In this document: piece by piece, positions 421 to 58,375 of the stretch
Position numbering within the stretch: position 1 is the first letter of the stretch
How the letters are laid out: every line of letters begins with the position of its first letter
From: Elusimicrobiota bacterium
GTDB lineage: Bacteria; Elusimicrobiota; UBA8919
Length of the DNA: 64,000 nucleotides
Direction: 5' to 3'
Assembly (NCBI GenBank): GCA_028718185.1
Contig: JAQUMH010000004.1
Location: forward strand, 10,334 to 74,333
Notes under the pieces: generated by a model
Databases searched by the model: none
The model's input: only the letters and a program-made list of their open reading frames with translations
Told to the model about the DNA's origin: nothing
Position numbers and translations under genes: made by a program

Positions 421-741
421 CTTCTTTTGTTTTCGGCAACCTTGCTGGCTTGATAGTTTTTAGTCTTGCCACAAGCGGTTTATCACAAAGCGGTTTACAC
501 GCTTGTGATTTACTTGCTTGTTGTTCGTCGCTTATCGGCAACCTGTGTTGGCATTCACTATCTTAGCCCTTGGTTTTGCGAACTCATCCCACTTTCATGG
601 GAGCAGCCTTTTCGGAATTCGCACTCGCAGGTCGGAGCTACTGCACCGACCGAGTTAATGCTCGGAGTTCGGACCTACTGGACCGAACGAGAACATAACC
701 CCGATGTTAATCGTGGGAATGCAACCCCGCAGTAAGCGGGG
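421..741. repeat. Conserved intergenic structured element, copy 1 of 5. It has a 5' conserved core (cttcttttgttttcggYaaccttgctggcttgatag...ttatcggcaacctgttggc...cttagcccttggttttgcgaactcatccNNtttcNNgggag.agccttttcgga) plus REP-like GC hairpins and a terminal ccccgc-loop-gcgggg hairpin.
   Basis: Near-identical copies occur at 11345-11600, 16222-16605, 45897-46080 and 56783-56965. The small hairpin shows compensatory changes across copies (ccca/tggg, cccga/tcggg, cctga/tcagg, cccg/cggg). The ORF-track ORF 466-735 inside it is not conserved in frame, so this is non-coding. Confidence 0.6.
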
Positions 742-987
742 TAAAACAATACTGTTTACTTTAGTTTCTGCACGTTTCTACTAATGAAGTATAACACATA
801 AATTGAAAAAAGTCAATGACTAATATTGCTAAATAGTTGACTAATATTGTGTTATTTATACCTAAAACTACCCATAGTTGAAAAAAAATATATAAATTAC
901 TTTATGCAGACCTGTTTTATAACATCCTATGGCTTTAGATTTTGAACCCAAAACCCTATAACTCTATAACTCTATAACGCGTCTATC

Positions 988-11344: not shown

Positions 11345-11600
11345 CTTCTTTTGTTTTCGATAACCTAGCTGGCTTGATAGTTAGATCTTTGTAATTTCTA
11401 TTAATTTCTACTTTATTTCCATTTATTACAAGATCTATTTTAATTATTTGTCGCTTATCGGCAACCTGTTGGCTTTCACTATCTTAGCCCTTGGTTTTGC
11501 GAACTCATCCCGATTTCTCGGGAGCAGCCTTTTCGGATTAGCACTCGCAGGTCGGAGCCACTGCACCGACCGAGAATGCAACCCCGCATTAAGCGGGGTA
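11345..11600. repeat. Conserved intergenic structured element, copy 2.
   Basis: It has the same core as 421-741, with hairpin variant cccga/tcggg and terminal hairpin ccccgc attaa gcgggg. ORF 11448-11648 inside it is spurious. Confidence 0.6.
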
Positions 11601-11684: not shown

Positions 11685-11790
11685 GTTTATGTTTCTTACT
11701 GCTCCTTCTAATAAGAGTATAGCGTACAGGGTAAAATAAGTCAATGGCTGAGATTGTTAAATTGTTGTCTGTAATTGTGGTGACTATCGT

Positions 11791-16221: not shown

Positions 16222-16605
16222 CTTCTTTTGTTTTCGGTAACCTTGCTGGCTTGATAGTTTTTAGTCTTGATAACATAGATTAATGGCACGATTATCAAGA
16301 CCTTTTGCTTATCGGCAACCTGTGTTGGCATTAACTATCTTAGCCCTTGGTTTTGCGAACTCATCCCGTTTTCACGAGAGTAGCCTTTTCGGATTAGTGC
16401 TCGGAGTTCGGAGCTACTGCACCGAACGAGAACACAATCCCGATCACATATTCAGTTATAAATAAGAATCGGGTTAGTGCGCGGAATCCGGAGCAACTGC
16501 ACCGGATGAGTTAATGCTCGGAGTTCGGAGCTACTGCACCGAACAAGAACATAACCCCGATGTTAATCGTGGGCACATGACCCCGCAGTAAGCGGGGTAA
16601 ACAAT
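16222..16605. repeat. Conserved intergenic structured element, copy 3. It is expanded, with extra inverted REP-like GC hairpin units.
   Basis: It has the same 5' core as the other copies, but the small hairpin is degenerate (cccgttttcacgag). It contains three GC-hairpin units and the terminal ccccgc agtaa gcgggg hairpin. ORF 16283-16465 inside it is spurious. Confidence 0.55.
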
Positions 16606-36188: not shown

Positions 36189-39100
36189 TTATTTGATTAA
36201 TCCTATCTTCCCGCTTTTCTTGCTACCGGCAGCGTCTTCTATCTGGTATATGTATATTCCTCTGCCTACCTTGTCACCATCACTATCCTTGCCATCCCAT
36301 TCTATCCAACCCAAATTACCAAAATCTATTTCTTTAAGTTCCCGGACTAATTCACCTGTCACATTATACAATTTCATATTGCTGTTCATTGGTAAATTGA
36401 TTATCTTCAATTTGCCAAGGACCGCTGTCGCCGGATTATACGGGTTAGGGTAGATTTTCACGTTACTCATATCAGCAGATACATAACTACCCAATATACG
36501 GTATGTTGAGAAATGTTTGACTGTCGCTGTTATTGTATTATTTACTTTGTCTACTGTCTGGACTCCTGAAACCAAATCCCAGTCTGTCCCTGTCCAGTAA
36601 TAGATTCTAAGTCCATCCTCATTTAATGTTCCTATATCTGCTGCTGTATATGGTATTGTTATGTTTACTGCTCTTGTAAATACCTGATTTTGTAATACCG
36701 GCGCATTATTATTAAATGTTAACTCTCCAAAATCATAACATATCGGATTCACTGTGTTAACATATTTCATTGAGTTTTGGACTGCCGGAGCTGCACTTGT
36801 CTTTATTGATGCAAGATACTTGTTTGCAGACAGGACACCTGTGGGTATCAGTATCTTTAAACCGTTGGAGCCTCGTATTGACCCGCCCTGATAACCAACT
36901 AATTTAGCAATATACATATCATTGAAACTTATCACTACTGGTGCTGTTACATCACCGGTCAGTTCAATTGTATTTATATCACTACGGAATGGGATTGCGA
37001 CTTCCTTCTCTCCTGCATCTGCTGTAATTAGTGTCGAATCTGTTGTATCAAGGACACTACTTTTGCTGTTCTTGGTTGTAAGCGTTAATGTTCCTGTGTA
37101 ATCGGTCGCAATACTGTTCTCATCTACATTATATACCTGAACCTTGAACTTCAAACTCGCAGCTGCTGATGCACCTACCTTTGTTGTTGTTGTCCCGTCA
37201 TCGTAATAATAGGTATATATTCTGTGCTTTAAGTTATATGTCTTGAAACTGTATTGTGCTGATGTAGCAAGATTATTAGATGAGTCACGGCTGTAGACCT
37301 TATAATAGTAGGTTTTGCCTTTCTGTAACCCGCTAATGGGAACACTGTGTAGTCTTGTAGATGTCGGATCTAACGTGGTTATGGTGCCCATCGCCGTTGT
37401 AGTTCCGTACGCAACCTGTGAATCTGAATTTTCATCAGTTGTCCATTTTATTACTGCACTGTTTAGCGTTACACCGGCTACTACGTTGCTTATCACAGGT
37501 GGATTAGGATCATTAGATGTTGTTGTAAAACTATAATCTCCGGTTGTTGTTGGGTTACCATTCATATCTACGGACACCATCCGGTAATGATATAATGTGT
37601 TCTGAGTAAGCCCACTTAGTGTAACACTGTGTGAATATACTCCATCGGCATCTGTTACCGGAGTTGCACTGCCATAACCAGTAGTTAATCCATACTCTAC
37701 TTTACTGTTCGCAGGTTCATTTGTTGTCCATGTTATAACTACTCCACTGCCAGTTACATTCGTTGGTGTTACGACACTTACTGATGGCGGTGTTGTATCT
37801 GTAGTTAAACTTATTAACTTGATGTAGTCAAAATTACCTACATCTGTACTACCGGCGTCCATTACTAATTTCATTATCTGGTTACCCGCAGTAAGCGTTA
37901 TTGATTCTGCGACTGTTACATCTGTAAATGCCTGCCATTCAACAGTATTAGGTACACTTACTGATGGAGTTACAAGATTTGTTGCATTGTGCGGACCAAA
38001 TTCAATATGGAACGGGGTTGCACCTGAAATTCCACAACCGGCTCTTGCTATTACTTTGTAGTCACCACCTTGATTTACATTTATACTGTATTCTAACCAC
38101 TCGCCAGGTTGAACGTACCCGATATCGTAGCCACCGTTACCAATGATGACATTCTCTACATCTACACCTTCAGTTGTCCTGTATGCTCCACCCCTGTTTG
38201 TAGCATCCATATCATGATATGCTAAACCCTCACCACTACCACCAGTTGTTATCCAATCATAATTTTCTGCTTCTATCGTTGACGTTCCTGTTATTATAGC
38301 CCATGGATTTCCACTGTTTCCATATGACTGTTGAGTTGAAACACTTGTTACCGTGTAAGCTGCACTATTTATTGAACTGTCAGTCATTGCAGTTTTAAAC
38401 GCACGCGCTCTGACTGTTGCACTTGCAGTTAATGTAAACGGTGCTGAATATAATGTTGATGATGATGTCGGGTCTGTTCCGTTTGTTGTATATCTTATCT
38501 CTGCCCCGCTGGTTGCACAGCCCAATGTTACTGTAACATAGCTTGCATATGACCCTGTTCCAGGAGTAATTGTCGGTGTTTCTACTGTATTAGGTGTCTC
38601 AGCACTTACCCTTACTAACTTTATGTAATCAAAATTGCCTGTATCTGTACTACCGGCGTCCATTACTAATTTCATTATCTGATTACCTGAAGGAAGCGTT
38701 ACTGAGTCAGCGACTGTTACGTCTGTAAATGCCTGCCAATCAACAGTATTGGGTATACTTACTGACGGTGTTACAAGAGAACCAATTTCAATGTGGAACG
38801 GACTTGCGTTTGATACCCCACAACCTGCGCTTGCTATTATTTTATAGTTGCCGCCTTGATTCACATTTATACTGTATTCTAACCACTCGCCAGGTTGTAC
38901 CCACCCTACATCATAACCATTACTGGCGCTAGCGACTATCTCTACATCCACATTCTCGGTTGTCCTGTATGTGTTTGCGTGGTCTTGTTGACCGACTGTT
39001 GTATCGTGATATGCTTCGCCTTCACCTATACCGGTTGTTAACATATCATAATTTTCTGCCTCTATAGTTGTCGTTCCTGCTCCTATTGACCATGCAACTC

Positions 39101-42100
39101 CGCTTGGATATGCTTGCTGTGTTGAAACGCCTGTTATTGTATATGCCACGCTATTTACTGAACTATCTGTCATTGCTGCTTTGAATGCACGCGCTTTTAC
39201 TGTCGCACTAGCAGTTAATGCAAACGGTGCAGAATATAGTGTTGATGATGATGTTGGATCTGTTCCATTTGTCGTGTATCTTATTTCTGCCCCACTGGTT
39301 GCGCAGCCTAATGTTACTGTGACAGAACCTGTAAATGTTCCTGCTCCCGGGCTAATTGTAGGTGTCGCTACTATATTAGGATCTTCTGCACTTAACTTTA
39401 TTAATTTGATGCAATCAAAATTACCTACATCAGTAGTGCCGGAATCCAGGACTAACTTCATTATCTGGTTGCCTGCAGTAAGCGTCACCGATTCTGCAAC
39501 AGTTACTTCTGTATAAGTCACCCAATCACCGGTATTAGGTACACTTACTAATGGTGTTGCAGTACTTGTTGCTCCATGCGGACCGAATTCGATATGGAAA
39601 GTACTTGCATTTGTTATTCCACTACCCGCGACTGCTATTACCTTGTAGTTGCCACCCTGATTTACATTAATACTATATTCTAACCATTCACCAGGATGTG
39701 CCCAACCTACATCATAACCATTACTTGCACCAGGGATTGCTTCTATATCTACACCTTCTGTTGTTCTGTATGCATTACCCTTATTAGCAGTATCAATATC
39801 GTGGTATGTCTCACCCTCACCTACACCACTTGTTAACATATCGTAATTTTCTGCTTCTATAGTTGTCGTTCCTGCTCCTATTGTCCATGCTACGCCATTA
39901 GGATATGCCTGTTGCGTTGATGGAGGAACGCTACCTCCGGTTATTGTTACTATTTGAGATGCAGACATCGCTGTAGTATTACCGCTACTATTATCTGTTG
40001 CTTTCGCTGTTATACTGTAACTTCCTGCAGGAACATTATTCCATATGTACTCATATGGCGAACTACTATCTGTTCCAAGCCAGTTACCACCATTGTAAAA
40101 ATCTACTTGCTTTATGCCGTCGCTGCTGGATGCATTTACATCTATCGTTAAAGTAGCAGGTGCATTACTACCATTTATAACACCAATTGTGCTTATGCTT
40201 ACAACCGGCGGAACATGAACGGCTGTATCAAGTATCCTCAGTGCTATATCCCCACTATAACTTGGAGCATTCAGTGTCTTGTTACCTCCGGGGTGACTCG
40301 CAATTGTTTCTGTCTTAACTACTAACAATTGATTATCTGCTGTCATACTTTTTGTATCAATCCATTCTGCTTTATAATCGCCTGCCAGTAAATTAACCGT
40401 AACAGAAGTCGGACCTGTTAAATAAAAAGCATACTGTTTATTAGTGCTATCACCAACCAGTCCCCAAGCATTTATACCTCTTGAAACGTCACGAGTCATT
40501 TTTATAAAATTAACAGAATGAATAAAATCTCTCAAAATATGATAGCACTTACGTAATGCCGGATTCCCTGACCCGATGGATTGTGTCCCGCATGCAGTCG
40601 GAGGAATTAAATTCCACGAACCATCTGCTTTAGTTGTGGTAAATGATAAGTCAAGGTAGTTATATAACGCTCCGCCATAGATAATCCAGCGCCATCCTGT
40701 ACGGCGATACCAGGCATCATCTTGCTTGTGATATGTTATTTCATCATTTGCTATGGGTTTAGGATAACCGTTATATGCGCTAACACGAACATCACTAGGA
40801 TCTTCGCTATAGAAATCCCAGGAAAGAATATCCACATTCGCAAGCGGTGTATCACTGCCATTATTATCACCGACAGCGTTTTGAGAAATAAGATGCTTTT
40901 TAGGTGTGTCTGCCGCTACTATTTTAGAAATGATGTCATTATCAAATGTAACTGACATAACTTGATTGGTTTCAGTTCCATTATAGTTAGGCTCAATACT
41001 CGGCTGATAAATGACATTGTCATATGTATTCAATTCCTGAACTATCTTCGTTACCATTGCTTCCTGATATGGTCTCAAACCGTCATTACCGTTAATATCC
41101 CAAACACTATTTAAACCACTGGTAGTCCATGATGCTGTATTACCTACACCATTAATATTATTACTTGCTTTAAATGGAGAACGAATCCACATGACTTGAC
41201 CAGGATTGTCATTAGTATTCCAATAAGGAGTGAAAAATGTAACTTCTACTACTATACCTCTATCACCAGCCATCTTAACGAAACCCTTGAGGCGGGCGAA
41301 ATAGTTATCGTCCCACTTGGTCAGGTCAAACTTATTGCTTGGATGTTTGGGTGAAACTGCTGACGGAGTATCATCATAAAAACCGGGAGTTGTACTTCTT
41401 GCAAAAGGACAGCTAAGTTTGTCGCTTTTTGGACCAAGCGTATTTTCATCAATAATCCACCATGGTGGATTACACATTGTATATGACGGCTCTACATAGA
41501 CACCGGTAAATATACGGGTATAATTAAGCCCATTAGCCTGGAGTGTGTCTAAATATGTTGTAGTGTTAAAATCAAGATTCAGTACTGCACCATAATGTTC
41601 ATTAGAACCAATCAGGACTGTCGGCTGACCTTTATATAGAAAGTAACGCGGATTATCAGGATGAAGTTTTATCGGTACGGCTGATGATACGCTATCTTTT
41701 TTCTCTGCTGTCCGCTGTACCACACCCAAATCACGGTATGATGATTCTATCACTTTACTCATTACCGGGTATGTTTTATCGTTATAAAGTCCCATTGTGA
41801 AATGTGCCGGGACTGCACTCATATACTTAGTTACATTAACAGCGTCATTTCCTGCAATATAGTTTCTTCCAAACCCAAATACTGTTAAATCTGACTTAAC
41901 CACATCATGAAGAATAGGCCAGTAAGATTCCGGTTGAGAATCATCTTCACTATGTGCAAAGAAAATTGAACGGTTAAGCGAACCATCTTTAAAGTACGCC
42001 CACTCAGGAGTTATGTCGCCTGCCCATATACCTGTGGCTGAAAGCGGTGTTTCTACACCATTTGCTCCACCAGGACGGACACAGGCATCTGTACTCGGGT

Positions 42101-44537
42101 CTAATGTGCCGCCAGGTGTTCCTTCATATAAAAACCAATAGTTGTGACCGACAGATGTTAGTGTCATCTTTGCGTACTCAGGATATATTTCCCAATAACA
42201 TTCCCAACCACCGCCTACTACTGAATGAATTTTCGCTTTAATAGGACCTGAACTAACTAAATCAGTTGTACCGTTAGTTGCATTAGGATGAAAACCGGGT
42301 AGTGCATCACCGTGAATCATATTAGGTATCCCGCGATATATATCACCTTCATTGCCGGCTGTTGGCGCACTATGATAGTTTATCCAGTCGTTGCCGGCAC
42401 TATCTACAAGACTTGAAAATCCTGCGCCTGCTTTCTGGTAATAATATGTCCCCTGGTCTGTCACTATTTTATAACAGTCCTTGCCTTCATCCGTTGAGTT
42501 TGTTAGTGCTACATGTGCTGTTACTGAAGGAACTGTTAAATTTGTACCTGTGTTAAAATATATATGATAATATCTTGTAGCATTCGCTACTGTCGTATTG
42601 TCCATAATAAACACAAGTGTCCCAGCCGCATTTGTAGTTGCGTTATATGTGCTTGACTGGTCAAACTGGAACGGAACTGATGCATTGACTACCGTACCAT
42701 CTCCAAGAACTTCTACTACACGGATAGAACCTGGGTCGAATGCTCCACTTCCTCCCAATCCGGTTATTAATGTCGTGAAATTTATATCTTTTTCTACGGG
42801 TTTATTTTTCCTTTCATATGCGCCTGCCTGGATATCCAACCCTACGCGATAATTCCAGCTATCATTCCACCAATTACCTACGGTTGAACCTCCGGTTACG
42901 GTTATACTAACAAGATTGGATACTCCTATGTTCCCAAGATTATCAGTTGATTTTACTGAAATAACATAACTTCCTGCGGCAACATTTGACCATGTGTAGT
43001 TATATGGAGAACTAGTATCTTCTCCTAACTTAGTAGAACCATTATAAAATTCTACTTTACTTATTGTTCCATCACTGTCTGTTGCCGTTGCATTGATTGT
43101 TATATTCGCAGGTGAATCAAATGATGCATTATTACTTGGAGCTGTTATACTCGCGGTTGGTATTCCTTGAGTTGTATATTTAACTAATAGTACCGGTCCG
43201 GGCCAGTTTACTTCAAGTGCATGATGCTGTGTATTGCAACTCATATAAAAGTCATTTGTGCCGGTGTGTAATAAATTTGGATTAAAATCATATGTATTAA
43301 ATGCGGGGGCTACCACTGCGCCAATCGGTCCTGCTAATTGACCTCCGGCATCCACTATCCTCACGTTATTAATACCAAATTCACGGATACTGGCTGCAGC
43401 ACAAGGAACAAGGCTTTCCTGTCCTGCACCACACCAGGTTGCTATCATAAGTTTTGCACCTGTCGCATTGGTTAATTGTTCATTTATAGTATAAGAACAT
43501 GTCCTTGGATTAGATGTAAAACTAGCAGCACAAAAACCCGGTGGAACATTATTTGAAGCATATAGTTTTACAGAATAGCTGGTTCTGGAAAAGGTAAGAT
43601 TATCTACAGCATCTGTTATATAACACATACCATCATTACCTACTATACGAGCTACTACCTTCATTGGCTGATCCTGGTCAGGTATCCAGCGAGTATCCCA
43701 TGTTGCCGAATAGGGACTGGTAGTATCAGTGCCTATATGTTTATCAAGTACTCCGTCTTTATATGTATGATGCCAGTTTTGAAAACGGCCATCGCCTTCC
43801 CAGTTAAAGTCTTTATACCAGCCAATAAAATCTACTTGTCTTATTCCACCTGTATATGTAGGCACATTGGCTGTGAAAGTCTGACTATCTCCTAATGCAC
43901 TCCCTGAAGTCGGTGATGTGATGCTGCCTGTTGGATGAGTTTTGGAACTGCTATAATATACTCGAATTGTAACTGAATATACCCAGAAAAATGGCATACC
44001 GCCACCTTGTGAACCGGCAGTAAAAGAAATATTATTGTTACCTGCAATTAGCGAGCCTGCTCCACTTAACGGAACAACTGTTGGTACTGTATTATATAAT
44101 GTCCTGAAGTAATAACTCCCGCTTGTTGGTGTTGTAGGCAGCGGTAAAGGTTTCCAGTCGTTATCGCTTGTGCTATTTACACGGAACTTCTGGTCTTGTG
44201 TGCCATCATGACCACCCCAATATGATATATATACTTCTGCTTTTGTTGCTCCGGTAGTATCTACTGAATTCACTGTCGCAGTAACTGCCGAATTTCCCCC
44301 ACAACTTGTTAAAGTACAGCCTCCATATCCTGCGCATGGATCTGATGAAGTAGTGTCGTGAGCAGTGTACGGATTTCCACAAATAGCTGTACCGCCATAC
44401 CAACCTGTGGATACTCGCGTAAAATCTTTGTAAATATTGTCTGTTCCGGGATAAAAATCTGCCCAACTTTTAGTTACAATGCCACTCGCAAATATTAACG
44501 CCGCTAAAAACATACACCATCTAATAATCTTACCCAT
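36189..44537 (-). CDS. Giant surface protein B (about 2780 aa). It has a signal peptide, Ig-like domains, a putative GH5/GH140-like TIM-barrel region, (CBM6 plus CHB_HEX_C) x3 plus CBM6, FN3 x2, a beta-sandwich region and a T9SS type-A CTD. It is the intact paralog of gene A.
   Basis: Likely true start ATG at 44537 (MGKIIRWCMFLAALIFASGIVTKSWA), preceded by GGGAGGAAAAGGT. The ORF track start at 44591 reads the UTR in frame. The domain order is collinear with A. The C-terminus ends ...KIYPNPYNPATAVLGKLKIINLPMNSNMKLYNVTGELVRELKE...WDGKDSDGDKVGRGIYIYQIE...KIGLIK. Confidence 0.8.
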   Translation of the reverse strand: MGKIIRWCMFLAALIFASGIVTKSWADFYPGTDNIYKDFTRVSTGWYGGTAICGNPYTAHDTTSSDPCAGYGGCTLTSCGGNSAVTATVNSVDTTGATKAEVYISYWGGHDGTQDQKFRVNSTSDNDWKPLPLPTTPTSGSYYFRTLYNTVPTVVPLSGAGSLIAGNNNISFTAGSQGGGMPFFWVYSVTIRVYYSSSKTHPTGSITSPTSGSALGDSQTFTANVPTYTGGIRQVDFIGWYKDFNWEGDGRFQNWHHTYKDGVLDKHIGTDTTSPYSATWDTRWIPDQDQPMKVVARIVGNDGMCYITDAVDNLTFSRTSYSVKLYASNNVPPGFCAASFTSNPRTCSYTINEQLTNATGAKLMIATWCGAGQESLVPCAAASIREFGINNVRIVDAGGQLAGPIGAVVAPAFNTYDFNPNLLHTGTNDFYMSCNTQHHALEVNWPGPVLLVKYTTQGIPTASITAPSNNASFDSPANITINATATDSDGTISKVEFYNGSTKLGEDTSSPYNYTWSNVAAGSYVISVKSTDNLGNIGVSNLVSITVTGGSTVGNWWNDSWNYRVGLDIQAGAYERKNKPVEKDINFTTLITGLGGSGAFDPGSIRVVEVLGDGTVVNASVPFQFDQSSTYNATTNAAGTLVFIMDNTTVANATRYYHIYFNTGTNLTVPSVTAHVALTNSTDEGKDCYKIVTDQGTYYYQKAGAGFSSLVDSAGNDWINYHSAPTAGNEGDIYRGIPNMIHGDALPGFHPNATNGTTDLVSSGPIKAKIHSVVGGGWECYWEIYPEYAKMTLTSVGHNYWFLYEGTPGGTLDPSTDACVRPGGANGVETPLSATGIWAGDITPEWAYFKDGSLNRSIFFAHSEDDSQPESYWPILHDVVKSDLTVFGFGRNYIAGNDAVNVTKYMSAVPAHFTMGLYNDKTYPVMSKVIESSYRDLGVVQRTAEKKDSVSSAVPIKLHPDNPRYFLYKGQPTVLIGSNEHYGAVLNLDFNTTTYLDTLQANGLNYTRIFTGVYVEPSYTMCNPPWWIIDENTLGPKSDKLSCPFARSTTPGFYDDTPSAVSPKHPSNKFDLTKWDDNYFARLKGFVKMAGDRGIVVEVTFFTPYWNTNDNPGQVMWIRSPFKASNNINGVGNTASWTTSGLNSVWDINGNDGLRPYQEAMVTKIVQELNTYDNVIYQPSIEPNYNGTETNQVMSVTFDNDIISKIVAADTPKKHLISQNAVGDNNGSDTPLANVDILSWDFYSEDPSDVRVSAYNGYPKPIANDEITYHKQDDAWYRRTGWRWIIYGGALYNYLDLSFTTTKADGSWNLIPPTACGTQSIGSGNPALRKCYHILRDFIHSVNFIKMTRDVSRGINAWGLVGDSTNKQYAFYLTGPTSVTVNLLAGDYKAEWIDTKSMTADNQLLVVKTETIASHPGGNKTLNAPSYSGDIALRILDTAVHVPPVVSISTIGVINGSNAPATLTIDVNASSSDGIKQVDFYNGGNWLGTDSSSPYEYIWNNVPAGSYSITAKATDNSSGNTTAMSASQIVTITGGSVPPSTQQAYPNGVAWTIGAGTTTIEAENYDMLTSGVGEGETYHDIDTANKGNAYRTTEGVDIEAIPGASNGYDVGWAHPGEWLEYSINVNQGGNYKVIAVAGSGITNASTFHIEFGPHGATSTATPLVSVPNTGDWVTYTEVTVAESVTLTAGNQIMKLVLDSGTTDVGNFDCIKLIKLSAEDPNIVATPTISPGAGTFTGSVTVTLGCATSGAEIRYTTNGTDPTSSSTLYSAPFALTASATVKARAFKAAMTDSSVNSVAYTITGVSTQQAYPSGVAWSIGAGTTTIEAENYDMLTTGIGEGEAYHDTTVGQQDHANTYRTTENVDVEIVASASNGYDVGWVQPGEWLEYSINVNQGGNYKIIASAGCGVSNASPFHIEIGSLVTPSVSIPNTVDWQAFTDVTVADSVTLPSGNQIMKLVMDAGSTDTGNFDYIKLVRVSAETPNTVETPTITPGTGSYASYVTVTLGCATSGAEIRYTTNGTDPTSSSTLYSAPFTLTASATVRARAFKTAMTDSSINSAAYTVTSVSTQQSYGNSGNPWAIITGTSTIEAENYDWITTGGSGEGLAYHDMDATNRGGAYRTTEGVDVENVIIGNGGYDIGYVQPGEWLEYSINVNQGGDYKVIARAGCGISGATPFHIEFGPHNATNLVTPSVSVPNTVEWQAFTDVTVAESITLTAGNQIMKLVMDAGSTDVGNFDYIKLISLTTDTTPPSVSVVTPTNVTGSGVVITWTTNEPANSKVEYGLTTGYGSATPVTDADGVYSHSVTLSGLTQNTLYHYRMVSVDMNGNPTTTGDYSFTTTSNDPNPPVISNVVAGVTLNSAVIKWTTDENSDSQVAYGTTTAMGTITTLDPTSTRLHSVPISGLQKGKTYYYKVYSRDSSNNLATSAQYSFKTYNLKHRIYTYYYDDGTTTTKVGASAAASLKFKVQVYNVDENSIATDYTGTLTLTTKNSKSSVLDTTDSTLITADAGEKEVAIPFRSDINTIELTGDVTAPVVISFNDMYIAKLVGYQGGSIRGSNGLKILIPTGVLSANKYLASIKTSAAPAVQNSMKYVNTVNPICYDFGELTFNNNAPVLQNQVFTRAVNITIPYTAADIGTLNEDGLRIYYWTGTDWDLVSGVQTVDKVNNTITATVKHFSTYRILGSYVSADMSNVKIYPNPYNPATAVLGKLKIINLPMNSNMKLYNVTGELVRELKEIDFGNLGWIEWDGKDSDGDKVGRGIYIYQIEDAAGSKKSGKIGLIK

Positions 44538-44693
44538 ACCTTTTCCTCCCGTTTTGCCATATATTTTATTAAAATTTTGTTTTATTTTCATATTTTAATC
44601 TTTTTGACATCGGGCTATCTTTATTTACATCTTACCATTTATTCTTTAATTTTTCAATCTTTTTTGACCTCGGACATTGGACATCGGACTGCT

Positions 44694-45647
44694 TTATTCT
44701 TTTCCGCCCCCAAACCTTATACCTAGCGATACTCTGTGCGTGTCGCCTAAATCTTTTGTCGGAACAAACGCATAATCAAGATTAAATGTTGAACTCTCTC
44801 CACCCATCTTAAACCCGCCGCCTAATGTATAACTCTCCTCATGATAACCTATCTTGTAGCCTGCACGAATTGCTATCATCTCTGCTACTATTAACTCCAT
44901 TCCGATGTTCTCTTTTGTTATCGCACTGTCTAATCCATAATTAACGTCGGCAGCTATTGTTAAATTATTCTCACCTTCAAATGCTGATAGCTTCTTGCCT
45001 AACCCAGCTTTTATATTTCCGGGTAAACTATCACTTCCTACCTTACCACCTATGTTCTGAACTGCCAGTCCTAATTGTATTCCGCCTTTATTGGGAACAT
45101 ATTCTACACCTAAATCTAACCCAAATCCGGATGCAGTATCACTGTCTATCTTCTCACTTACCATCTTTAAACTGCCACCTACATTTATTGTTTCATCTAC
45201 CTGCTTGCCGTAACTTATCGCACCACCCATATCATTTGCACTATAACTGCCTACGCTGCCTACCGCATCATATGCGCCATTGGCATCTTCTAATGTCTTG
45301 TCCATACTGCCATAATTAAGGTACATTACCTGTAACCCTATTGTTGAACTTTCGTTTATTGGGTGTCCTATAGCCAGATATTCGTAATTTATTCCTTCAA
45401 AATATGATAAATGCATAAATGATAACTCGGTTGCGCTGACTGAACCTAATCCTGCCGGATTCCAATATACGCTATTGACATCTTCAGCTACTGCTACCTG
45501 TGCACCACCCATAGCTTCCTGTTTCGCACCTATGCCTACTTTCAAAAACTGCATAGCAGAACTACTAATGTTAGCTTCTAAATTGCCTGTACATATAGTA
45601 CCTACTACCATTACTGCAAATATCACAGTGCTAAGCACTTTGCGCAT
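44694..45647 (-). CDS. PorV/PorQ-family outer-membrane beta-barrel protein, paralog 2.
   Basis: About 80% identical to paralog 1 (MQFLKVGIGAKQEAMGGAQVAVAEDVNSVYWNPAGLG...). Likely start ATG at 45647 (MRKVLSTVIFAVMVVGTICTG) after AAGGGGGAAAAT. It is directly upstream of gene B. Confidence 0.55.
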   Translation of the reverse strand: MRKVLSTVIFAVMVVGTICTGNLEANISSSAMQFLKVGIGAKQEAMGGAQVAVAEDVNSVYWNPAGLGSVSATELSFMHLSYFEGINYEYLAIGHPINESSTIGLQVMYLNYGSMDKTLEDANGAYDAVGSVGSYSANDMGGAISYGKQVDETINVGGSLKMVSEKIDSDTASGFGLDLGVEYVPNKGGIQLGLAVQNIGGKVGSDSLPGNIKAGLGKKLSAFEGENNLTIAADVNYGLDSAITKENIGMELIVAEMIAIRAGYKIGYHEESYTLGGGFKMGGESSTFNLDYAFVPTKDLGDTHRVSLGIRFGGGKE

Positions 45648-45734
45648 ATTTTCCCCCTTATAGTTTTTAATTTCGCTTATTGTTATTTTCATAAAGCTCT
45701 CCAATTTAGTACTGTTCTTGTGTTCTCGGTTTAT

Positions 45735-45815
45735 TATCCCGATTTTTATTTATAACTTAATATGTAATCGGGATTGTTTTATTGGTCTCCGGTAGGGGAC
45801 TCAATAAAACAAAAA
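45735..45815. repeat. REP-like unit (AT-loop hairpin cccgat...atcggg) plus the perfect hairpin ttgttttattggtctcc-ggta-ggggactcaataaaacaa.
   Basis: It matches the units at 15902-16060 and 56640-56700. Confidence 0.5.
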
Positions 45816-45864
45816 AGAAGTATATTAGAAAACTAGTTAATAATTAGTTGATTAAGTTTTTAAC

Positions 45865-45896
45865 CTAATTCGCTAATTCACTAATTTACTAATCCA
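45865..45896. repeat. Tandem octamer array (ctaattcg ctaattca ctaattta ctaatcca).
   Basis: The same array occurs at 389-420 and 56751-56782, always abutting the 5' end (plus-strand sense) of the conserved leader element. Confidence 0.55.
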
Positions 45897-46080
45897 CTTC
45901 TTTTGTTTTCGGTAACCTTGTTAGCTTGATAGTTAGATCTTTGTAATTTCTACTTTATTTCTATTTATTACAAGATCTATTTTAATTATTTGTCGTTTAT
46001 CGGCAACCTGTTGGCTTTCACTATCTTAGCCCTTGGTTTTGCGAACTCATCCTGATTTCTCAGGAGTAGCCTTTTCGGAG
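45897..46080. repeat. Conserved intergenic structured element, copy 4 (core only).
   Basis: Core identical to the other copies. The hairpin variant cctga/tcagg is compensatory relative to cccga/tcggg. Confidence 0.6.
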
Positions 46081-46410
46081 TTTTACTTTATTTTATCTTT
46101 GCCTCCTTTCGATTATTTATCTTATTTACTATTTCTTAAGGTTTTTATTATTTAAATATTCTTTTTAATTTGTATCTTCTAATAGTAGTATAACGTATAG
46201 TTACAAAAATGTCAATATCCATAATTGCCGTTATCTTATCTATAATTGCTAAAGAACATTAATTAGCTATAATTACTTTTTACGTGTAAAACTAAATCTT
46301 ATTTAAAAACTCTCCGTTGGTTGATGCTCACATCTTGCTAACATATAATCACTTCTTGTGCTTCACTATATATATAACACACTATTGATTTTCTGTCAAG
46401 GTCTTTTTTT
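46081..46410 (-). promoter_or_regulatory. Conserved 330 nt regulatory block, copy 1. It holds a minus-strand sigma70-like promoter (TTGACA at 46216-46211, N17, TATACT at 46193-46188). Immediately upstream of its -35 lies a direct repeat ATAATTGC-N13-ATAATTGC (46222-46250, 21 bp periodicity) that looks like an AraC/XylS-type operator.
   Basis: About 85% identical to 56966-57297, including the promoter hexamers and the direct repeat. The transcript would run through leader-element copy 4 into the PorV-like/gene B operon. Confidence 0.45.
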
Positions 46411-46721
46411 TATGATAAATTGTCGCAATAAATATCATTATTTTTTTAATTATTTTTCATTTCTCGTCGGATTATCAAATGTGTTGTTATCGGCAATTGT
46501 TATATCTTTATCTATTATTGTTATATATTAATTTTAACAATATGCTATAAAAACTAAATAATGCTCGGTAATATAAACGGTGCCACTTTTTACTACTATA
46601 CTTTTATCTAATATTAGGGTTTCTAAAAAAACGATATTGCTTAAAAATTAAATATTATTTTAATGTATAGGAATTTCAATGTTTGTAGTTGCACGCCCTT
46701 GGCGTGCCTAACTTAAAACAA

Positions 46722-55561: not shown

Positions 55562-56596
55562 TTAGAATTTCACATTCAATGCTACTCTATGTGTATCGCC
55601 TAAATCGCCAAACGGAACAAATGCATAATCTAACCCATATCCCTTATAATCTAAACCAGCTCCTACACTTATCCCTTTTAATCCACTTATGTCTTTTGTT
55701 TTGGTGTTGTATCCTGCCCTGCCTATTAGTGTCGTTCCTTCACCCGCGTCATACTTATACTCAGTCCCTGCTCCTATTCCTATCCCACTGTCATTTACTG
55801 CTGTTATATCTAACCCGACTAACCATTCCGGTTGAATATTATATCCTCCACCTACACGTATTGTCATAGGTAAATTATCACTCTCTTCTACATACTTCAT
55901 CTTACTGCCTACATTCTGAACTGCTAACCCTATACTCATTCCGCTATCTATTGGCTTATATAACATTCCTACATCACCGGCTATCGCTGTCGCACTCTCC
56001 TTTATCTTGCTGCTTATATACTTTACTCCTACTCCTAATGACACATCGTCACTTACTATATTCCCATAACTTAACGTAACAGACATATCTGTTGGACTAT
56101 AATTACCACCTAATATTCCATTTATATCGCTTTCTTTTATATTACCATAATTTATATATTGCACACCTAACCCTATTACTCCTACACCTGCTATCGGCTG
56201 TCCATAACCTACCCAACTATAACCTATATCTTCAAACCAGACCGCATGCATTACACTTATTGATGTTTTTTCTATTCCAGCTAATCCTGCTGTATTCCAA
56301 TATATACTACTTGCTCCTTCACATACTCCTACTCCGATATCGCCCATCCCACTACTACGGGCGCCGGCTCCTATTTTTAAAAACTGGACTGCACTTGTCC
56401 CTGTATCATCTTTGCTAAAGGCAGCGTATGTGCTGCTTGAAACAAGAAGCAAGAAGCAAGAGGCAAGAAGCAAGAAACAAGATAACATCTGATTTCTGAC
56501 TTCTGGTTTCTGACTTCTAATTTCTGACATTGGACATTGTCCGCCACTAAACATTGGTGAAGCAGGGACTTTTGACTGTCTCTTTAAATTTTTCAT
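55562..56596 (-). CDS. PorV/PorQ-family outer-membrane beta-barrel protein, paralog 3. It is divergent (about 30-35% identity to paralogs 1 and 2) and has an unusual repeat-encoded N-terminal extension.
   Basis: VQFLKIGAGARSSGMGDIGVGVCEGASSIYWNTAGLAG... aligns with the PorV-like motif of paralogs 1 and 2. The C-terminus ends in F. ATG 56596 has a good SD (AGAGGT). An alternative start is ATG at 56488 (MLSCFLLLASCFLLLVSSSTYAAF). Confidence 0.5.
   Translation of the reverse strand: MKNLKRQSKVPASPMFSGGQCPMSEIRSQKPEVRNQMLSCFLLLASCFLLLVSSSTYAAFSKDDTGTSAVQFLKIGAGARSSGMGDIGVGVCEGASSIYWNTAGLAGIEKTSISVMHAVWFEDIGYSWVGYGQPIAGVGVIGLGVQYINYGNIKESDINGILGGNYSPTDMSVTLSYGNIVSDDVSLGVGVKYISSKIKESATAIAGDVGMLYKPIDSGMSIGLAVQNVGSKMKYVEESDNLPMTIRVGGGYNIQPEWLVGLDITAVNDSGIGIGAGTEYKYDAGEGTTLIGRAGYNTKTKDISGLKGISVGAGLDYKGYGLDYAFVPFGDLGDTHRVALNVKF
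56439..56530. repeat. Simple-sequence repeats inside the 5' coding region of PorV-like paralog 3: heptamer CAAGAAG/CTTGCTT x about 6 (56439-56481), then 13-mer tttctgacttct(g/a)(g/a) x about 2.5 (56491-56530).
   Basis: Direct reading. On the sense strand it reads cttgttt cttgctt cttgcct cttgctt cttgctt cttgttt, encoding the hydrophobic core of the signal peptide. Related caagaagcaag repeats occur at 20760-20810 and 23430-23480. Confidence 0.6.
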
Positions 56597-56700: not shown

Positions 56701-56750
56701 AAAAAGAAGTATATTAGAAAATCAATCAATTAGTTAATTAAGTTTTTAAC

Positions 56751-56782: not shown

Positions 56783-56965
56783 CTTCTTTTGTTTTCGGTA
56801 ACCTTGCTGGCTTAATAGCCACAAGCGGTTTATCACAAAGCGGTTTACACGCTTGTGATTTACTTGCTTGTGGTTTGTCGTTTATCGGCAACCTGTTGGC
56901 GTTATCTATCTTAGCCCTTGGTTTTGCGAACTCATCCCGCTTTCACGGGAGTAGCCTTTTCGGAG
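56783..56965. repeat. Conserved intergenic structured element, copy 5 (core only).
   Basis: The core is conserved. The hairpin variant cccg ctttca cggg has an extra insertion (acaagcggtttatcacaaagcggtttacacgcttgtgatttacttgcttg) that is shared with copy 1. Confidence 0.6.
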
Positions 56966-57297
56966 TCTTACTTTCTTATACCTTTACCCCCTTTTGATTA
57001 CTTATCTTATTTGCTATTTCTTAAGGTCTTTAGTATCTAAACATTACTTTTTGATTTGTATCTTCAAACAGTAGTATAACGCATAGTTACATAAATGTCA
57101 ATATCTATAATTGCCGTTATCTTATCTATAATTGCTAAAGAATGCTAATTAGTTATAATTACATTTTATGAGTAAAACTAAATCTTATTTAAAAACCCTC
57201 TGATAGTTAATGCTCATATCTTGCTAATACATAATAACTTCTTGTGCTTTACTATATATATAACACACTATTGATTTTCTGTCAAGGTCTTTTTTTT
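56966..57297 (-). promoter_or_regulatory. Conserved 330 nt regulatory block, copy 2. It has a minus-strand promoter (TTGACA at 57102-57097, N17, TATACT at 57079-57074) and the direct repeat ATAATTGC-N13-ATAATTGC (57107-57135) abutting the -35.
   Basis: About 85% identical to 46081-46410. It lies between the divergent AraC paralog 2 and the leader / PorV-like 3 / cargo operon. Confidence 0.45.
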
Positions 57298-57577: not shown

Positions 57578-58375
57578 ATGAAAATAGAACGCTATCAGAA
57601 AGAAAAAAAAGATATTAAATTAATTGAAGTAACATATCTTAACCCAGATCCTAACTGGAAAATCAGAAAACACTATCATACTTTTCACGAACTTGTAATT
57701 GTTACGAAAGGTTTGATGCATGTTGAAATATTAGGAAAAAACATTCATGCAAATGCCGGAGATATACTTTTTTATCAGGCAGGAATAGCTCACAAAGAAC
57801 AATCCGATCATAAAAAACCGGTTGAAACTGTCGGTTTCACTTGGAAAGAGAAAAGAAAAGTTAATTTTCCTGTTTTAACTCATGATATAAACGGCAAAAT
57901 ATGTGTTTTATCTAAATGGGCGTGCGAACAAGGACAAATAAGTTATCCTTACAAACGTTTACAACAAGAGAATATTTTTGAAGTTATAAGAATTGAATTA
58001 ATAAAAATCATCGAATCTGAAGTAGAAAATCAACTTGTAAGTAAAGTAAAAAGTTTTATGCTGGGGAACTTAAATTTAGACAAATCCATGACTCTTGATA
58101 ATCTTGCGAATTATGTTCATATGAGTAAATATCATTTTATAAAAAAATATAGAGTAATTACCGGAAGGACACCAATGGAAGATTTAAGAAATATTCGCCT
58201 TGAAGTTGCCAAAGACTTGTTTTTGACCACATGTATGCCTATAAAAGCTGTTGCAACTAAAGTGGGGTTCAGCAATGTGTTCATCTTCTCAAGACTGTTT
58301 CAGAAATATTTTAACTTACCACCGGGACACTACCGAAACAACACAGACTTTAATAAAAATACTATTTATTTATAA
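57578..58375 (+). CDS. AraC-family transcriptional regulator (cupin-like N-domain plus AraC HTH). Paralog of 11791-12582.
   Basis: ...LANYVHMSKYHFIKKYRVITGRTPMEDLRNIRLEVAKDLF...FSNVFIFSRLFQKYFNLPPGHYRNN. It is about 50% identical to paralog 1 and has the same length. Confidence 0.8.
   Translation: MKIERYQKEKKDIKLIEVTYLNPDPNWKIRKHYHTFHELVIVTKGLMHVEILGKNIHANAGDILFYQAGIAHKEQSDHKKPVETVGFTWKEKRKVNFPVLTHDINGKICVLSKWACEQGQISYPYKRLQQENIFEVIRIELIKIIESEVENQLVSKVKSFMLGNLNLDKSMTLDNLANYVHMSKYHFIKKYRVITGRTPMEDLRNIRLEVAKDLFLTTCMPIKAVATKVGFSNVFIFSRLFQKYFNLPPGHYRNNTDFNKNTIYL

What the first reader, a model, noticed from the sequence alone, without database searches (positions are those of the whole stretch)
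46081..46410. Duplicated regulatory block with promoter and an AraC-style direct-repeat operator abutting the -35
Regions 46081-46410 and 56966-57297 are about 85% identical non-coding DNA.

Both carry a minus-strand TTGACA-N17-TATACT promoter. Immediately upstream of its -35 they carry two ATAATTGC half-sites in direct repeat spaced 21 bp apart. This is the geometry of class-II AraC/XylS activator sites. One block is divergent from AraC paralog 2. The other has no adjacent regulator, which implies regulation in trans.

This defines a candidate regulon linking the giant CTD cargo cassettes to a sugar-responsive AraC regulator.
Basis: partly seen in the sequence, partly recalled or inferred. 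Interest (0 to 1): 0.55.

Follow-up and report, generated by a model that had tools for sequence, protein, structure and literature searches.

The report
AraC-type operator plus c-di-GMP riboswitch leader
The duplicated block is the promoter and operator end of a regulatory module, reused at least five times in this Elusimicrobiota region, that pairs an AraC-style activator site with a cyclic-di-GMP-riboswitch-like RNA leader in front of operons for large secreted carbohydrate-binding surface proteins.

Summary
Window 46081-46410 and 56966-57297 are 88.6% identical non-coding DNA. Each carries a minus-strand TTGACA-N17-TATACT promoter (P2) and two direct repeats in 21-bp register ending at the -35.

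The repeat unit is 13 bp (RCAAT-NNN-AG-NNA), not 8. The same 13-8-13 layout abutting -35 recurs at two more diverged promoters in the window (817-850, 11745-11778). It also recurs next to a 41%-identical AraC homologue in another metagenome. AraC paralogues lie divergent from five of eight such leaders. So an AraC/XylS-type class II operator is well supported by comparison, though binding is untested.

An 83-nt element present five times in the window, and in two outside loci, aligns full-length to Rfam c-di-GMP-I at 21.8-32.0 bits, below the cut-off of 35. It has a covarying GAAA hairpin and canonical G20, A47 and C92. It lacks the conserved G83.

A second, mutually exclusive copy of its 3' half lies about 100 nt downstream, before a terminator-like hairpin with a U-tract.

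Best reading: two-layer control, with AraC acting at initiation and c-di-GMP in the leader, of PorV-like and T9SS-cargo operons. How the aptamer couples to output is unresolved.

The parts
46488..46521 (-). Upstream operator-like 13-8-13 site of cassette A: ACAATAATAGATA-N8-ACAATTGCCGATA. It lies about 270 bp upstream of the P2 operator and is an auxiliary-site candidate.
   Evidence: The generalised operator pattern matches with 1 mismatch, against 0.02 expected per window. A homologous position in L007 carries a similar site 80 nt upstream of its P1 -35.
46371..46399 (-). P1-type promoter of cassette A: A8-GACC-TTGACA-N17(TGT)-TATATA. The A/B homology begins here.
   Evidence: The same promoter type with the TAGTGAAG start region occurs at 57257-57285 and 16633-16661, and in L007, L008 and L009. 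The -10 lacks the T at its last position, so the consensus scanner did not list it.
46237..46249 (-). Distal 13-bp half-site GCAATTATAGATA (about -69 to -57 of P2).
46216..46228 (-). Proximal 13-bp half-site GCAATTATGGATA, ending at the base before the -35 (about -48 to -36).
46187..46215 (-). P2 promoter of cassette A: TTGACA-N17-TATACT.
   Evidence: 11/12 match to consensus. The promoter type is conserved at four leaders.
45997..46081 (-). c-di-GMP-I-like aptamer of cassette A, formed with the proximal 3' half.
   Evidence: Rfam RF01051, full-length 1-87, 29.5 bits against a cut-off of 35. Fold z-score -2.0. P2-hairpin covariation.
45905..45932 (-). Distal mimic of the aptamer 3' half (CUAUCAAGCUAACAAGGUUACCGAAAAC). 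It pairs with GGCUAAGAUAG and AACC of the aptamer and excludes the proximal 3' half.
   Evidence: RNAalifold. MFE folds of all five leaders. Forced-state energies.
45795..45904 (-). T1: a long AU-rich hairpin with base AAAAGAAG/CUUCUUUU, followed by the U-rich tract UUGUUUUAUU. It is terminator-like and is the candidate effector.
   Evidence: L009 has a compensatory G-C to A-U change in the base.
44694..45692 (-). PorV/PorQ-family outer-membrane barrel gene of cassette A (ATG at 45692 after GGAGAG). The 2800-aa CBM/Ig protein with a T9SS C-terminal domain follows at 36189-44591.
   Evidence: NCBIfam NF033709 178 bits; TIGR04183 28.8 bits on the giant protein's C-terminus. Pfam.
57073..57135 (-). 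Cassette B P2 promoter (57073-57101) with two GCAATTATAGATA half-sites (57102-57114 and 57123-57135).
57257..57285 (-). Cassette B P1-type promoter.
56882..56966 (-). Cassette B c-di-GMP-I-like aptamer. Its distal mimic is at 56791-56818 and T1 at 56702-56790.
   Evidence: RF01051, 32.0 bits. Coordinates.
57578..58375 (+). AraC paralogue 2 (cupin plus two HTH), with its own promoter at 57505-57532.
   Evidence: Pfam. Promoter 12/12. Identical to an Elusimicrobia MAG protein on a 226-kb contig.
11716..11778 (-). Third P2 promoter (TTGACT-N17-TATACT) with half-sites ACAATTACAGACA and ACAATCTCAGCCA. It lies 13 bp from the start codon of AraC paralogue 1 (11791-12582, + strand).
11455..11539 (-). 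Aptamer copy in front of the PorV-like gene 10202-11164. Its distal mimic is at 11353-11380 and T1 at 11273-11352.
   Evidence: RF01051, 26.3 bits. Coordinates.
788..850 (-). Fourth P2 promoter with half-sites ACAATATTAGTCA and GCAATATTAGTCA. No AraC gene is adjacent.
532..618 (-). Aptamer copy. Its distal mimic is at 429-456 and T1 at 338-428. The downstream gene starts at about 240 and runs off the window.
   Evidence: RF01051, 21.8 bits..
16309..16395 (-). Aptamer copy behind a P1-type promoter (16633-16661), in front of the 1074-aa CBM6/T9SS-CTD protein gene 12635-15859. Its distal mimic is at 16230-16257.
   Evidence: RF01051, 26.9 bits..

Best explanation
The block is the promoter and operator part of a roughly 0.7-kb regulatory module. 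The module heads at least five operons in this window and at least three more loci from the same or related Elusimicrobiota. It has two layers.

**Layer 1, DNA**
- A sigma-70-type promoter (P2) has two 13-bp direct repeats (RCAAT-NNN-AG-NNA) in 21-bp register, and the proximal repeat ends at the -35.
- This is the layout of a class II AraC/XylS activator site.
- The most likely binder at A and B is AraC paralogue 2 (57578-58375), acting in cis at B and in trans at A.
- Other promoters carry their own variant words and probably answer to other paralogues.

**Layer 2, RNA**
- About 100 nt into the transcript lies a c-di-GMP-I (GEMM-I)-like aptamer.
- It is followed by a variable hairpin, a second copy of the aptamer's 3' half that competes for the same 5' strand, and a long hairpin with a U-tract (T1).
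- The aptamer most likely senses c-di-GMP and sets how much transcript reaches the PorV-like gene and the giant carbohydrate-binding T9SS cargo genes.

**Shown versus inferred**
- Shown: the sequences, their recurrence, the covariation, the geometry and the gene neighbourhoods.
- Inferred: who binds the repeats, the ligand, and the direction and mechanism of RNA control.
For: **Operator**
- Four P2 promoters share the 13-8-13 layout abutting -35. Per-promoter P ranges from 4e-8 to 2e-4, and no other TTGAC[AT] site in the window shows it.
- The two half-sites co-vary within each promoter: TAT-AG-ATA, ATT-AG-TCA, and TAC/CTC-AG-ACA/CCA.
- The positions match XylS and FoxR sites (PMC9804782).
- AraC genes are divergent neighbours at 11791, at 57578, and in L007, L008, L009 and L010.
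- L010, from a different organism and without a riboswitch, keeps RCAAT in 21-bp register abutting -35.
- L007 carries GCAATATTAGGCA-N8-GCAACTATGGACA, close to the words of the orphan promoter at 817-850.
- RNA of the P1-P2 spacer is not structured (z = +1.17). This favours a DNA-level reason for its conservation.

**Riboswitch**
- A 28-mer core is exact in five minus-strand copies, with 0 expected by chance.
- Full-length RF01051 alignments score 21.8-32.0 bits in the window, 27.0 in L009 and 22.4 in L007.
- The GAAA-capped hairpin has three pairs with changes on both sides and 99% of cells paired.
- G20, C44, A47 and C92 equivalents are invariant (residue roles from PMC4744006).
- All copies sit in 5' leaders on the coding strand.

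**Switch**
- The MFE of every leader pairs the aptamer's P3 5' strand with the distal mimic.
- The proximal version forms first as the transcript grows.
- The two states differ by 1.3-9.1 kcal/mol.
Against: - No Rfam hit reaches the gathering score.
- The proximal 3' half has A where the 'universally conserved' G83 should be.
- No P1 stem is evident.
- The conserved GGCAAA is GGCUAC or GGCUGC here.
- Thermodynamic folding shows T1, the next hairpin and the ribosome-binding site unchanged between the two aptamer states. No coupling to an output is demonstrated.
- T1 has only two G-C pairs at its base and was not called by the terminator scanner.
- P1-type promoters in L008, L009 and at 16633-16661 lack a clear 13-8-13 site although AraC genes are adjacent to L008 and L009. 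The operator rule is therefore not universal.
- All window copies are paralogues that appear to recombine, so some shared features may reflect descent or gene conversion rather than selection.
- Distant PorV-like loci have no such RNA.
Confidence: 0.65

Rival explanations
1. The repeats are a real operator, but the binder is not an AraC paralogue. It is another transcription factor encoded elsewhere in the genome, and the AraC genes control something else or act at other sites.
For: Two of the four P2 promoters have no adjacent AraC gene. AraC2's start is 443 bp from the B operator. L008 and L009 have adjacent AraC genes but no clear 13-8-13 site. The RCAAT-to-AG spacing (7 nt) is shorter than the roughly 10 nt between the two recognition elements of XylS or MarA sites (own knowledge).
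Against: AraC homologues co-occur with the same layout in three independent settings: 11745-11778, 57102-57135 and L010. In two of them the start codon lies within 15 bp of the distal repeat. The 21-bp direct-repeat register abutting -35 is the family's signature (PMC9804782).
Confidence: 0.15
2. The block is simply a recent segmental duplication or gene conversion of a promoter region. The internal repeats have no regulatory role.
For: A and B are 88.6% identical while their genes are 58% identical. The leaders are mosaics, because variable-hairpin types are shared in a pattern that cuts across the rest of the sequence. This shows recombination among copies. Any 8-mer repeat is common in AT-rich DNA.
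Against: The 13-8-13 layout survives in promoters whose spacers and flanks have diverged beyond recognition, and in another organism. The unit is not a 21-bp tandem duplication, because only the first 13 of 21 positions match. The fixed-register statistics are strong.
Confidence: 0.08
3. The RNA element is a GEMM-I relative that no longer senses c-di-GMP. It senses another ligand such as a different cyclic dinucleotide, or it is a purely structural or protein-binding leader element.
For: Scores are below the Rfam cut-off. G83 and the GGCAAA adenines are altered. The distal 3' half has U at the C92 position in two copies. Known GEMM-I variants change ligand through pocket substitutions (PMC9481103). 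Bc1 binds c-di-GMP yet does not regulate (PMC11218506).
Against: The three ligand-contacting positions G20, A47 and C92 are canonical and invariant in the proximal aptamer of all seven copies. The known c-AMP-GMP variants change the position-20 nucleotide, which is G here. The target genes are surface and adhesion-type proteins, which fits c-di-GMP biology (PMC4744006).
Confidence: 0.15
4. In A and B the main promoter is P1. The stretch holding the repeats and P2 is then part of a long 5' UTR, conserved for an RNA-level reason.
For: The A/B homology starts exactly at P1's A-tract and -35. P1-type promoters alone drive the leaders at 16633-16661 and in L007-L009.
Against: RNA of the P1-P2 interval folds worse than shuffled sequence (z = +1.17). 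P2 and its repeats recur without any P1 at 788-850 and 11716-11778. A short ORF in A's interval is not kept in B (seen by reading).
Confidence: 0.1

Closest known systems
XylS at the Pm promoter; also AraC at araI1-I2 and FoxR at foxA (AraC/XylS class II activation)
   Same: Two direct-repeat half-sites in 21-bp register, with the proximal one touching the -35. Here they lie at about -69/-57 and -48/-36, against -70/-56 and -49/-35 for XylS and CGCATAG-N14-CGCATAG for FoxR (PMC9804782). The regulator has an N-terminal cupin ligand domain and a C-terminal double HTH, and is encoded divergently.
   Different: The word RCAAT-NNN-AG-NNA is new. Several paralogue and operator pairs with co-varying half-sites sit in one genome. 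One operator (A) has no local regulator. No binding or inducer data exist. A possible far-upstream auxiliary site (46488-46521) is only a pattern match.
c-di-GMP-I (GEMM-I) riboswitch, Rfam RF01051, for example Vc2 and Vc1 of Vibrio cholerae
   Same: Two adjacent hairpins, a GAAA tetraloop, the CUAAG receptor strand, the CGCAAA junction, the GGUUNCCGA 3' end, and canonical G20/A47/C92 (PMC4744006). It sits in a 5' UTR of surface-protein genes. Vc1 controls the chitin-binding protein GbpA.
   Different: Scores are 21.8-32.0 bits against a cut-off of 35. There is a 4-nt insertion before CGCAAA. GGCAAA is replaced by GGCUAC or GGCUGC. The upper P3 stem is nearly absent, A replaces G83, and no P1 is evident. 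A second alternative 3' half lies about 100 nt downstream. The host phylum is Elusimicrobiota, and full-text searches found no paper pairing 'c-di-GMP riboswitch' with either 'Elusimicrobia' or 'type IX secretion'.
Bc1 c-di-GMP-I riboswitch of the Bacillus cereus group, which has a long expression platform
   Same: A class I aptamer followed by an unusually long, multi-hairpin expression platform whose response to ligand is not obvious from structure. A DNA-binding protein also acts on the same region (PMC11218506).
   Different: Bc1 has two typical terminators 28 bp apart. Here there is one atypical long AU-rich hairpin with a U-tract, a duplicated aptamer 3' half, and 100-250 nt more leader before the start codon.
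Tandem c-di-GMP-I riboswitches (doublets and triplets)
   Same: Repeated use of class I aptamer sequence within one leader, possibly to sharpen the response (PMC9481103).
   Different: Here only the 3' half is duplicated, and the two copies compete for a single 5' half. At most one aptamer exists at a time.

Membership tests
c-di-GMP-I riboswitch (Rfam RF01051) | Covariance-model score at or above the curated gathering score (35 bits). | tested here: not met
   No hit at gathering threshold. Full-length sub-threshold hits of 32.0, 29.5, 26.9, 26.3 and 21.8 bits in the window, 27.0 in L009 and 22.4 in L007.
c-di-GMP-I riboswitch (Rfam RF01051) | First hairpin (P2/P1a) capped by a GNRA tetraloop. 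| tested here: met
   GAAA in 7/7 copies. The 6-bp stem is 97.6% paired, with three pairs changed on both sides.
c-di-GMP-I riboswitch (Rfam RF01051) | Tetraloop receptor in the second hairpin (P3/P1b). | tested here: inconclusive
   The 5' strand GCUAAG is invariant. The 3' strand reads xAxGCC (consensus uAuGac) in both the proximal and distal versions. The upper P3 stem is missing with the proximal 3' half and is supplied as GAUAGU/ACUAUC with the distal one.
c-di-GMP-I riboswitch (Rfam RF01051) | Ligand-contacting nucleotides G20, A47 and C92 (Vc2 numbering; PMC4744006). | tested here: met
   Columns 16, 47 and 86 of alignment A4 are invariant G, A and C in seven copies, mapped through the cmscan alignment. 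The distal 3' half has U at the C92 position in 2 of 6 copies.
c-di-GMP-I riboswitch (Rfam RF01051) | Interhelical C44-G83 Watson-Crick pair, described as universally conserved (PMC4744006). | tested here: not met
   C44 is present. The G83 position is A in the proximal 3' half in 7/7 copies (GCC-AA-C). It is G in the distal 3' half in 5/6 copies (GCC-AG-C).
c-di-GMP-I riboswitch (Rfam RF01051) | P1 stem between the 5' and 3' flanks of the aptamer. | tested here: not met
   Both flanks are purine-rich (CCGAAAAG and CCGAUAA or CCGAAAAC). Only a 2-bp CG/CG pairing is conserved, and the candidate outer pairs do not hold across copies.
c-di-GMP-I riboswitch (Rfam RF01051) | Binds c-di-GMP and changes downstream expression. 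| not testable with these tools
   Needs in-line probing or ITC and reporter assays. Thermodynamic folds show no coupling to T1 or the RBS.
AraC/XylS class II activator site | Two half-sites in direct repeat, about 21 bp centre to centre. | tested here: met
   13-8-13 at four window promoters and in L010, and with 2 mismatches in L007. Statistics.
AraC/XylS class II activator site | Proximal half-site adjacent to or overlapping the -35 hexamer. | tested here: met
   The proximal 13-mer ends at the base before TTGAC[AT] in all four window promoters and in L010.
AraC/XylS class II activator site | A cognate AraC-family regulator (ligand domain plus double HTH), typically encoded next to the target. 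| tested here: met
   Pfam AraC_binding/Cupin_2 plus HTH_18/HTH_AraC for 57578-58375 and 11791-12582. Further paralogues next to leaders in L007-L009. Cassette A and the 788-850 promoter have none adjacent.
AraC/XylS class II activator site | Sequence-specific binding and ligand-dependent activation. | not testable with these tools
   Needs EMSA or DAP-seq and reporter assays.

The most novel reading that the evidence does not exclude
The leaders carry a previously undescribed form of the class I c-di-GMP riboswitch. One aptamer 5' half can close with either of two 3' halves.
- The proximal 3' half keeps C92 but lacks G83.
- The distal 3' half lies about 100 nt downstream, keeps G83, adds the missing upper P3 stem, and sits directly against a terminator-like hairpin.
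- This would make a built-in bistable switch.

Together with a family of AraC paralogues, each with its own operator word, the module would integrate a carbohydrate cue and c-di-GMP. The output would be which PorV-like and T9SS-cargo cassette an Elusimicrobiota cell displays.
Probability: 0.3. Interest if true: 0.7.

Novelty: new variant of a known kind. Interest (0 to 1): 0.5.

Why it matters
- **Regulatory insight for an uncultivated lineage.** It would give the first concrete, testable regulatory logic for giant secreted carbohydrate-binding proteins here. Initiation would be controlled by paralogue-specific AraC-type activators, and leader control by the second messenger c-di-GMP.
- **Reach of current models.** It shows that class I c-di-GMP riboswitch relatives exist below the Rfam cut-off in Elusimicrobiota, in front of T9SS-type cargo and PorV-like genes. 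Full-text searches found no paper pairing 'c-di-GMP riboswitch' with 'Elusimicrobia' or with 'type IX secretion'.
- **Tractable test cases.** The duplicated, competing 3' half is a compact case for how riboswitch platforms achieve bistability. The co-varying half-site words offer a natural set of operator and regulator specificity pairs.

Tried and rejected
**Searches that found nothing useful**
- Rfam at gathering threshold found nothing. Only the permissive search exposed the c-di-GMP-I match.
- The exact-word scan of genome contigs with the aptamer core gave one chance hit, inside a Rheinheimera coding region. The scan of metagenome contigs gave none. L009, which holds the word, is evidently not in that collection.
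- The two closest PorV-like homologues (82% and 72% identity, Elusimicrobia MAGs) and AraC homologue P0124 could not be fetched.
- Three distant PorV-like loci (45-50% identity) were fetched. They have the barrel gene after, not before, the large gene and carry no GEMM-like RNA. The module is therefore lineage-restricted.

**Ideas tested and dropped**
- I looked for an anti-terminator or anti-SD partner of T1 or the RBS that would differ between the two aptamer states. Forced-state folds gave the same downstream structure in four of six leaders and 82-92% identical structure in the other two. The only complement found by eye is CGAAAAGG (aptamer 5' flank) against CUUUUUUG in the T1 3' strand. 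It is too remote to rely on.
- P1 as a canonical sigma-70 promoter was rejected in the strict sense, because its -10 TATATA lacks the final T. It is kept as a conserved promoter type because it recurs in six loci.
- A leader peptide in the P1-P2 interval was rejected: the 13-codon ORF in A is stopped after 2 codons in B.
- A simple 21-bp tandem duplication as the origin of the repeats was rejected, because only 13 of the 21 positions match.
Full report
**1.

Window 46081-46410 and 56966-57297 align at 88.6% identity and contain no ORF of 80 aa or more. Both carry, on the minus strand, TTGACA-N17-TATACT, which matches the sigma-70 consensus in 11 of 12 positions. Both also carry GCAATTAT twice, 21 bp apart, directly upstream of the -35.

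The homology is larger than reported. It spans about 45778-46413 against 56665-57300, with one internal hairpin exchanged. The regulatory DNA is much better conserved than the genes behind it, which are about 58% identical.

**2. Setting**

The best protein matches are Elusimicrobia MAG proteins. AraC2 is identical to a protein on a 226-kb Elusimicrobia MAG contig.

Both blocks sit upstream, on the minus strand, of PorV/PorQ-family barrel genes: 44694-45692 and 55562-56596 (NF033709, 178 and 205 bits). These are followed by 1276- to 2800-aa proteins full of CBM6/CBM35, Ig and fn3 domains. T9SS type A C-terminal domains are above the cut-off in three of six C-termini tested and just below it in two.

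A third cassette of this kind lies at 988-11164. A good terminator at 46748-46722 separates cassette B from block A, so A heads its own transcription unit.

AraC-type genes (cupin plus double HTH) lie at 11791-12582 and 57578-58375. They are 50% identical.

**3. The repeats are a conserved operator-like site**

TTGAC[AT]-N17-TATACT occurs four times in the window, always on the minus strand and always at the head of the same kind of leader. The -35 elements are at 57101, 46215, 11744 and 816.

In each case the 13 bases ending at the -35 match the 13 bases that start 21 bp further upstream:

| Promoter | Distal half-site | Proximal half-site |
|---|---|---|
| B | GCAATTATAGATA | GCAATTATAGATA |
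| A | GCAATTATAGATA | GCAATTATGGATA |
| 11745-11778 | ACAATTACAGACA | ACAATCTCAGCCA |
| 817-850 | ACAATATTAGTCA | GCAATATTAGTCA |

- The shared skeleton is RCAAT-NNN-AG-NNA, while spacers and flanks have diverged.
- In this fixed register the matches have P between 4e-8 and 2e-4. None of the other 63 TTGAC[AT] sites reaches 9/13.
- By contrast, an 8-mer repeat anywhere in the block is common by chance (42% of shuffles). The evidence is therefore the 13-mer in a fixed register and its recurrence, not the 8-mer alone.
- Only 13 of each 21 positions repeat, so this is not a simple tandem duplication.
- The skeleton pattern has 0.02 expected hits per shuffled window. It finds one further site at 46488-46521, about 270 bp upstream of A's operator.

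**4. Link to AraC**

With +1 placed 7 nt after the -10, the repeats cover about -69/-57 and -48/-36. XylS repeats at Pm lie at -70/-56 and -49/-35, and FoxR binds CGCATAG-N14-CGCATAG at -62/-56 and -41/-35 (PMC9804782).

AraC paralogues are the divergent neighbours of this kind of leader in several places:
- At 11791, the start codon is 13 bp from the distal repeat.
- At 57578.
- In L007 and L008, from the same sample.
- In L009, from another metagenome.

Two further loci add support:
- L007 has GCAATATTAGGCA-N8-GCAACTATGGACA 80 nt upstream of its promoter. This is close to the words of the orphan promoter at 817-850.
- L010 holds a 41%-identical AraC from a different organism. GCAATAAATGACA-N8-GCAATAACCGGCA abuts TTGACT of the divergent promoter, and no riboswitch follows.

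The AraC-plus-repeat layout therefore exists independently of the RNA element.

Within each promoter the two half-sites share their variable letters. This fits a different paralogue for each word (inference).

AraC1's own consensus promoter (11657-11684, + strand) fires through the 11745-11778 operator. This would allow autoregulation (inference).

**5.

Exactly at the 3' edge of the block an RNA element begins.

- The 28-mer GAGTTCGCAAAACCAAGGGCTAAGATAG is exact in five minus-strand copies, at 558, 11479, 16335, 46021 and 56906. None are expected by chance.
- Permissive Rfam searches align each copy end to end (model positions 1-87 of 87) to c-di-GMP-I (RF01051). Scores are 32.0, 29.5, 26.9, 26.3 and 21.8 bits. 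L009 scores 27.0 and L007 scores 22.4. The cut-off is 35.
- Seven copies share invariant AAAAGGC, GAAA, CGCAAAACC, GGCUAAG and GGUUGCCGAU.
- The GAAA-capped hairpin covaries: three pairs change on both sides, 99% of cells are paired, and register-shifted controls give 19-42%.
- The nucleotides that contact c-di-GMP in Vc2 (G20, A47, C92; PMC4744006) are canonical.

The departures from the family are:
- a sub-threshold score;
- GGCUAC or GGCUGC in place of GGCAAA;
- a 4-nt insertion before CGCAAA;
- almost no upper P3 stem;
- A at the position of G83;
- no evident P1.

By the membership rules this is a variant, not a plain member.

**6. The leader downstream of the aptamer**

After the aptamer come four elements.

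- **A hairpin of three unrelated sequence types.** The types are shared among copies in a pattern that cuts across the rest of the sequence. This points to recombination between leaders.
- **A distal mimic of the aptamer's 3' half,** ACUAUCAAGCCAGCAAGGUUACCGAAAAC.
  - It pairs with GGCUAAGAUAGU and AACC of the aptamer.
  - It matches the family consensus AG-C..GGUU-ACCGAA better than the proximal half, and it keeps G83 in 5 of 6 copies.
  - It has U at the C92 position in two copies.
  - Its three substitutions are C-to-U changes that keep G-U pairs.
- **T1, a long AU-rich hairpin.** Its base AAAAGAAG/CUUCUUUU shows one compensatory G-C to A-U change in L009. A U-rich tract follows it in all six full copies.
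- **In most copies, a further hairpin** that pairs this U-tract with a downstream A-tract. It has compensatory changes in L009 and in the copy at 278-337.

Every MFE fold uses the distal mimic. As the transcript is lengthened in silico, the proximal pairing appears first and then gives way. The forced states differ by 1.3-9.1 kcal/mol, which is less than a tight ligand could contribute (own knowledge).

T1, the following hairpin and the RBS are predicted the same in both states in four of the six leaders, and 82-92% the same in the other two. How the aptamer state reaches gene expression, and in which direction, is therefore not resolved. A U-tract hairpin next to the mimic makes transcription termination the most likely effector (inference). 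Long, puzzling platforms are known for class I, as in Bc1 (PMC11218506).

**7. A second promoter type, P1**

P1 reads A-tract-GACC-TTGACA-N17-TATAWA-TAGTGAAG. It sits at the exact start of the A/B homology (46371-46399 and 57257-57285). It is the only promoter at 16633-16661 and in L007-L009.

A and B thus have P1 and P2 in tandem, about 185 bp apart. RNA of the interval is not structured (z = +1.17). This argues that the repeats act as DNA.

**8. Verdict**

- The AraC-style operator reading is supported by comparative evidence but remains untested biochemically.
- The 'regulon' is wider, with several operator words and probably several paralogues.
- 'Sugar-responsive' remains a guess.
- The cassettes also carry a c-di-GMP-I-like riboswitch variant. 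This probably makes expression depend on c-di-GMP as well, in line with the known role of this messenger in surface and adhesion functions (PMC4744006, PMC9481103).
- Full-text searches found no paper pairing 'c-di-GMP riboswitch' with 'Elusimicrobia' or with 'type IX secretion'.

Noticed in passing
window 15902-15986 and 16389-16473: An 85-nt inverted repeat (93% complementary) flanks the whole aptamer-to-T1 segment of the 16335 leader, with 402 nt between the arms. It could clamp the riboswitch in a long RNA duplex. At DNA level it could mark an invertible or inserted segment.
   Followed up: partly
window 620-745, 11545-11600 and 16400-16600; L008 1-70; L009 485-625 (all minus strand): One to three copies of a hairpin module lie between the promoter and the aptamer in some leaders but not in A or B. 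Examples are CUCGGUCGG-UGCAGURGCU-CCGACCUGCGAG and ACCCCGCUUAMUGCGGGGU. The loop is conserved and the stems covary (GUCGG/CCGAC versus UUCGG/CCGAA versus AUCCGG/CCGGAU). There is no Rfam match.
   Followed up: partly
window 45865-45900, 56750-56788 and 385-425; L009 about 290-325: The 5' arm of T1 consists of four tandem 8-nt units, RAAUUAGN, so UAG recurs every 8 nt. Regularly spaced UAG triplets recall the binding sites of the RNA-binding antiterminator proteins HutP and TRAP (own knowledge). This was not tested.
   Followed up: no
window 45933-45996, 56819-56881, 457-531, 11381-11454 and 16258-16308: The hairpin between the aptamer and its distal mimic comes in three unrelated sequence types. 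A shares its type with the 11479 copy, B with the 558 copy, and 16335 with L009. This mosaic pattern indicates recombination among leaders.
   Followed up: partly
window 11657-11684 (+) versus 11716-11744 (-): AraC1's perfect-consensus promoter lies inside the leader region of the divergent operon and fires through the P2 operator. The two predicted start sites are about 18 nt apart and face each other. This arrangement would suit autoregulation or transcriptional interference.
   Followed up: no
window 10119-10194 and about 950-990; L008 3513-3588: Long perfect hairpins built from GUUAUAGAG-type repeats sit between the PorV-like gene and the giant genes, and after the giant genes. Rfam reports them only as spurious miRNA-like hits. 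They may be intergenic terminators or REP-like repeats.
   Followed up: no
window 20868-23357 and 29225-31666: Two genes encode apparent fusions of an extracellular solute-binding protein (SBP_bac_1) with an ABC permease domain (BPD_transp_1). They alternate with about 900-aa CBM6/fn3/Ig proteins.
   Followed up: no
window 46264-46276 and 57150-57162 (minus strand): A third related 13-mer lies 27 bp upstream of the distal half-site: GTAATTATAGCTA in A and GTAATTATAACTA in B. It has T in place of the core C, so it does not fit the RCAAT skeleton or the 21-bp register.
   Followed up: no
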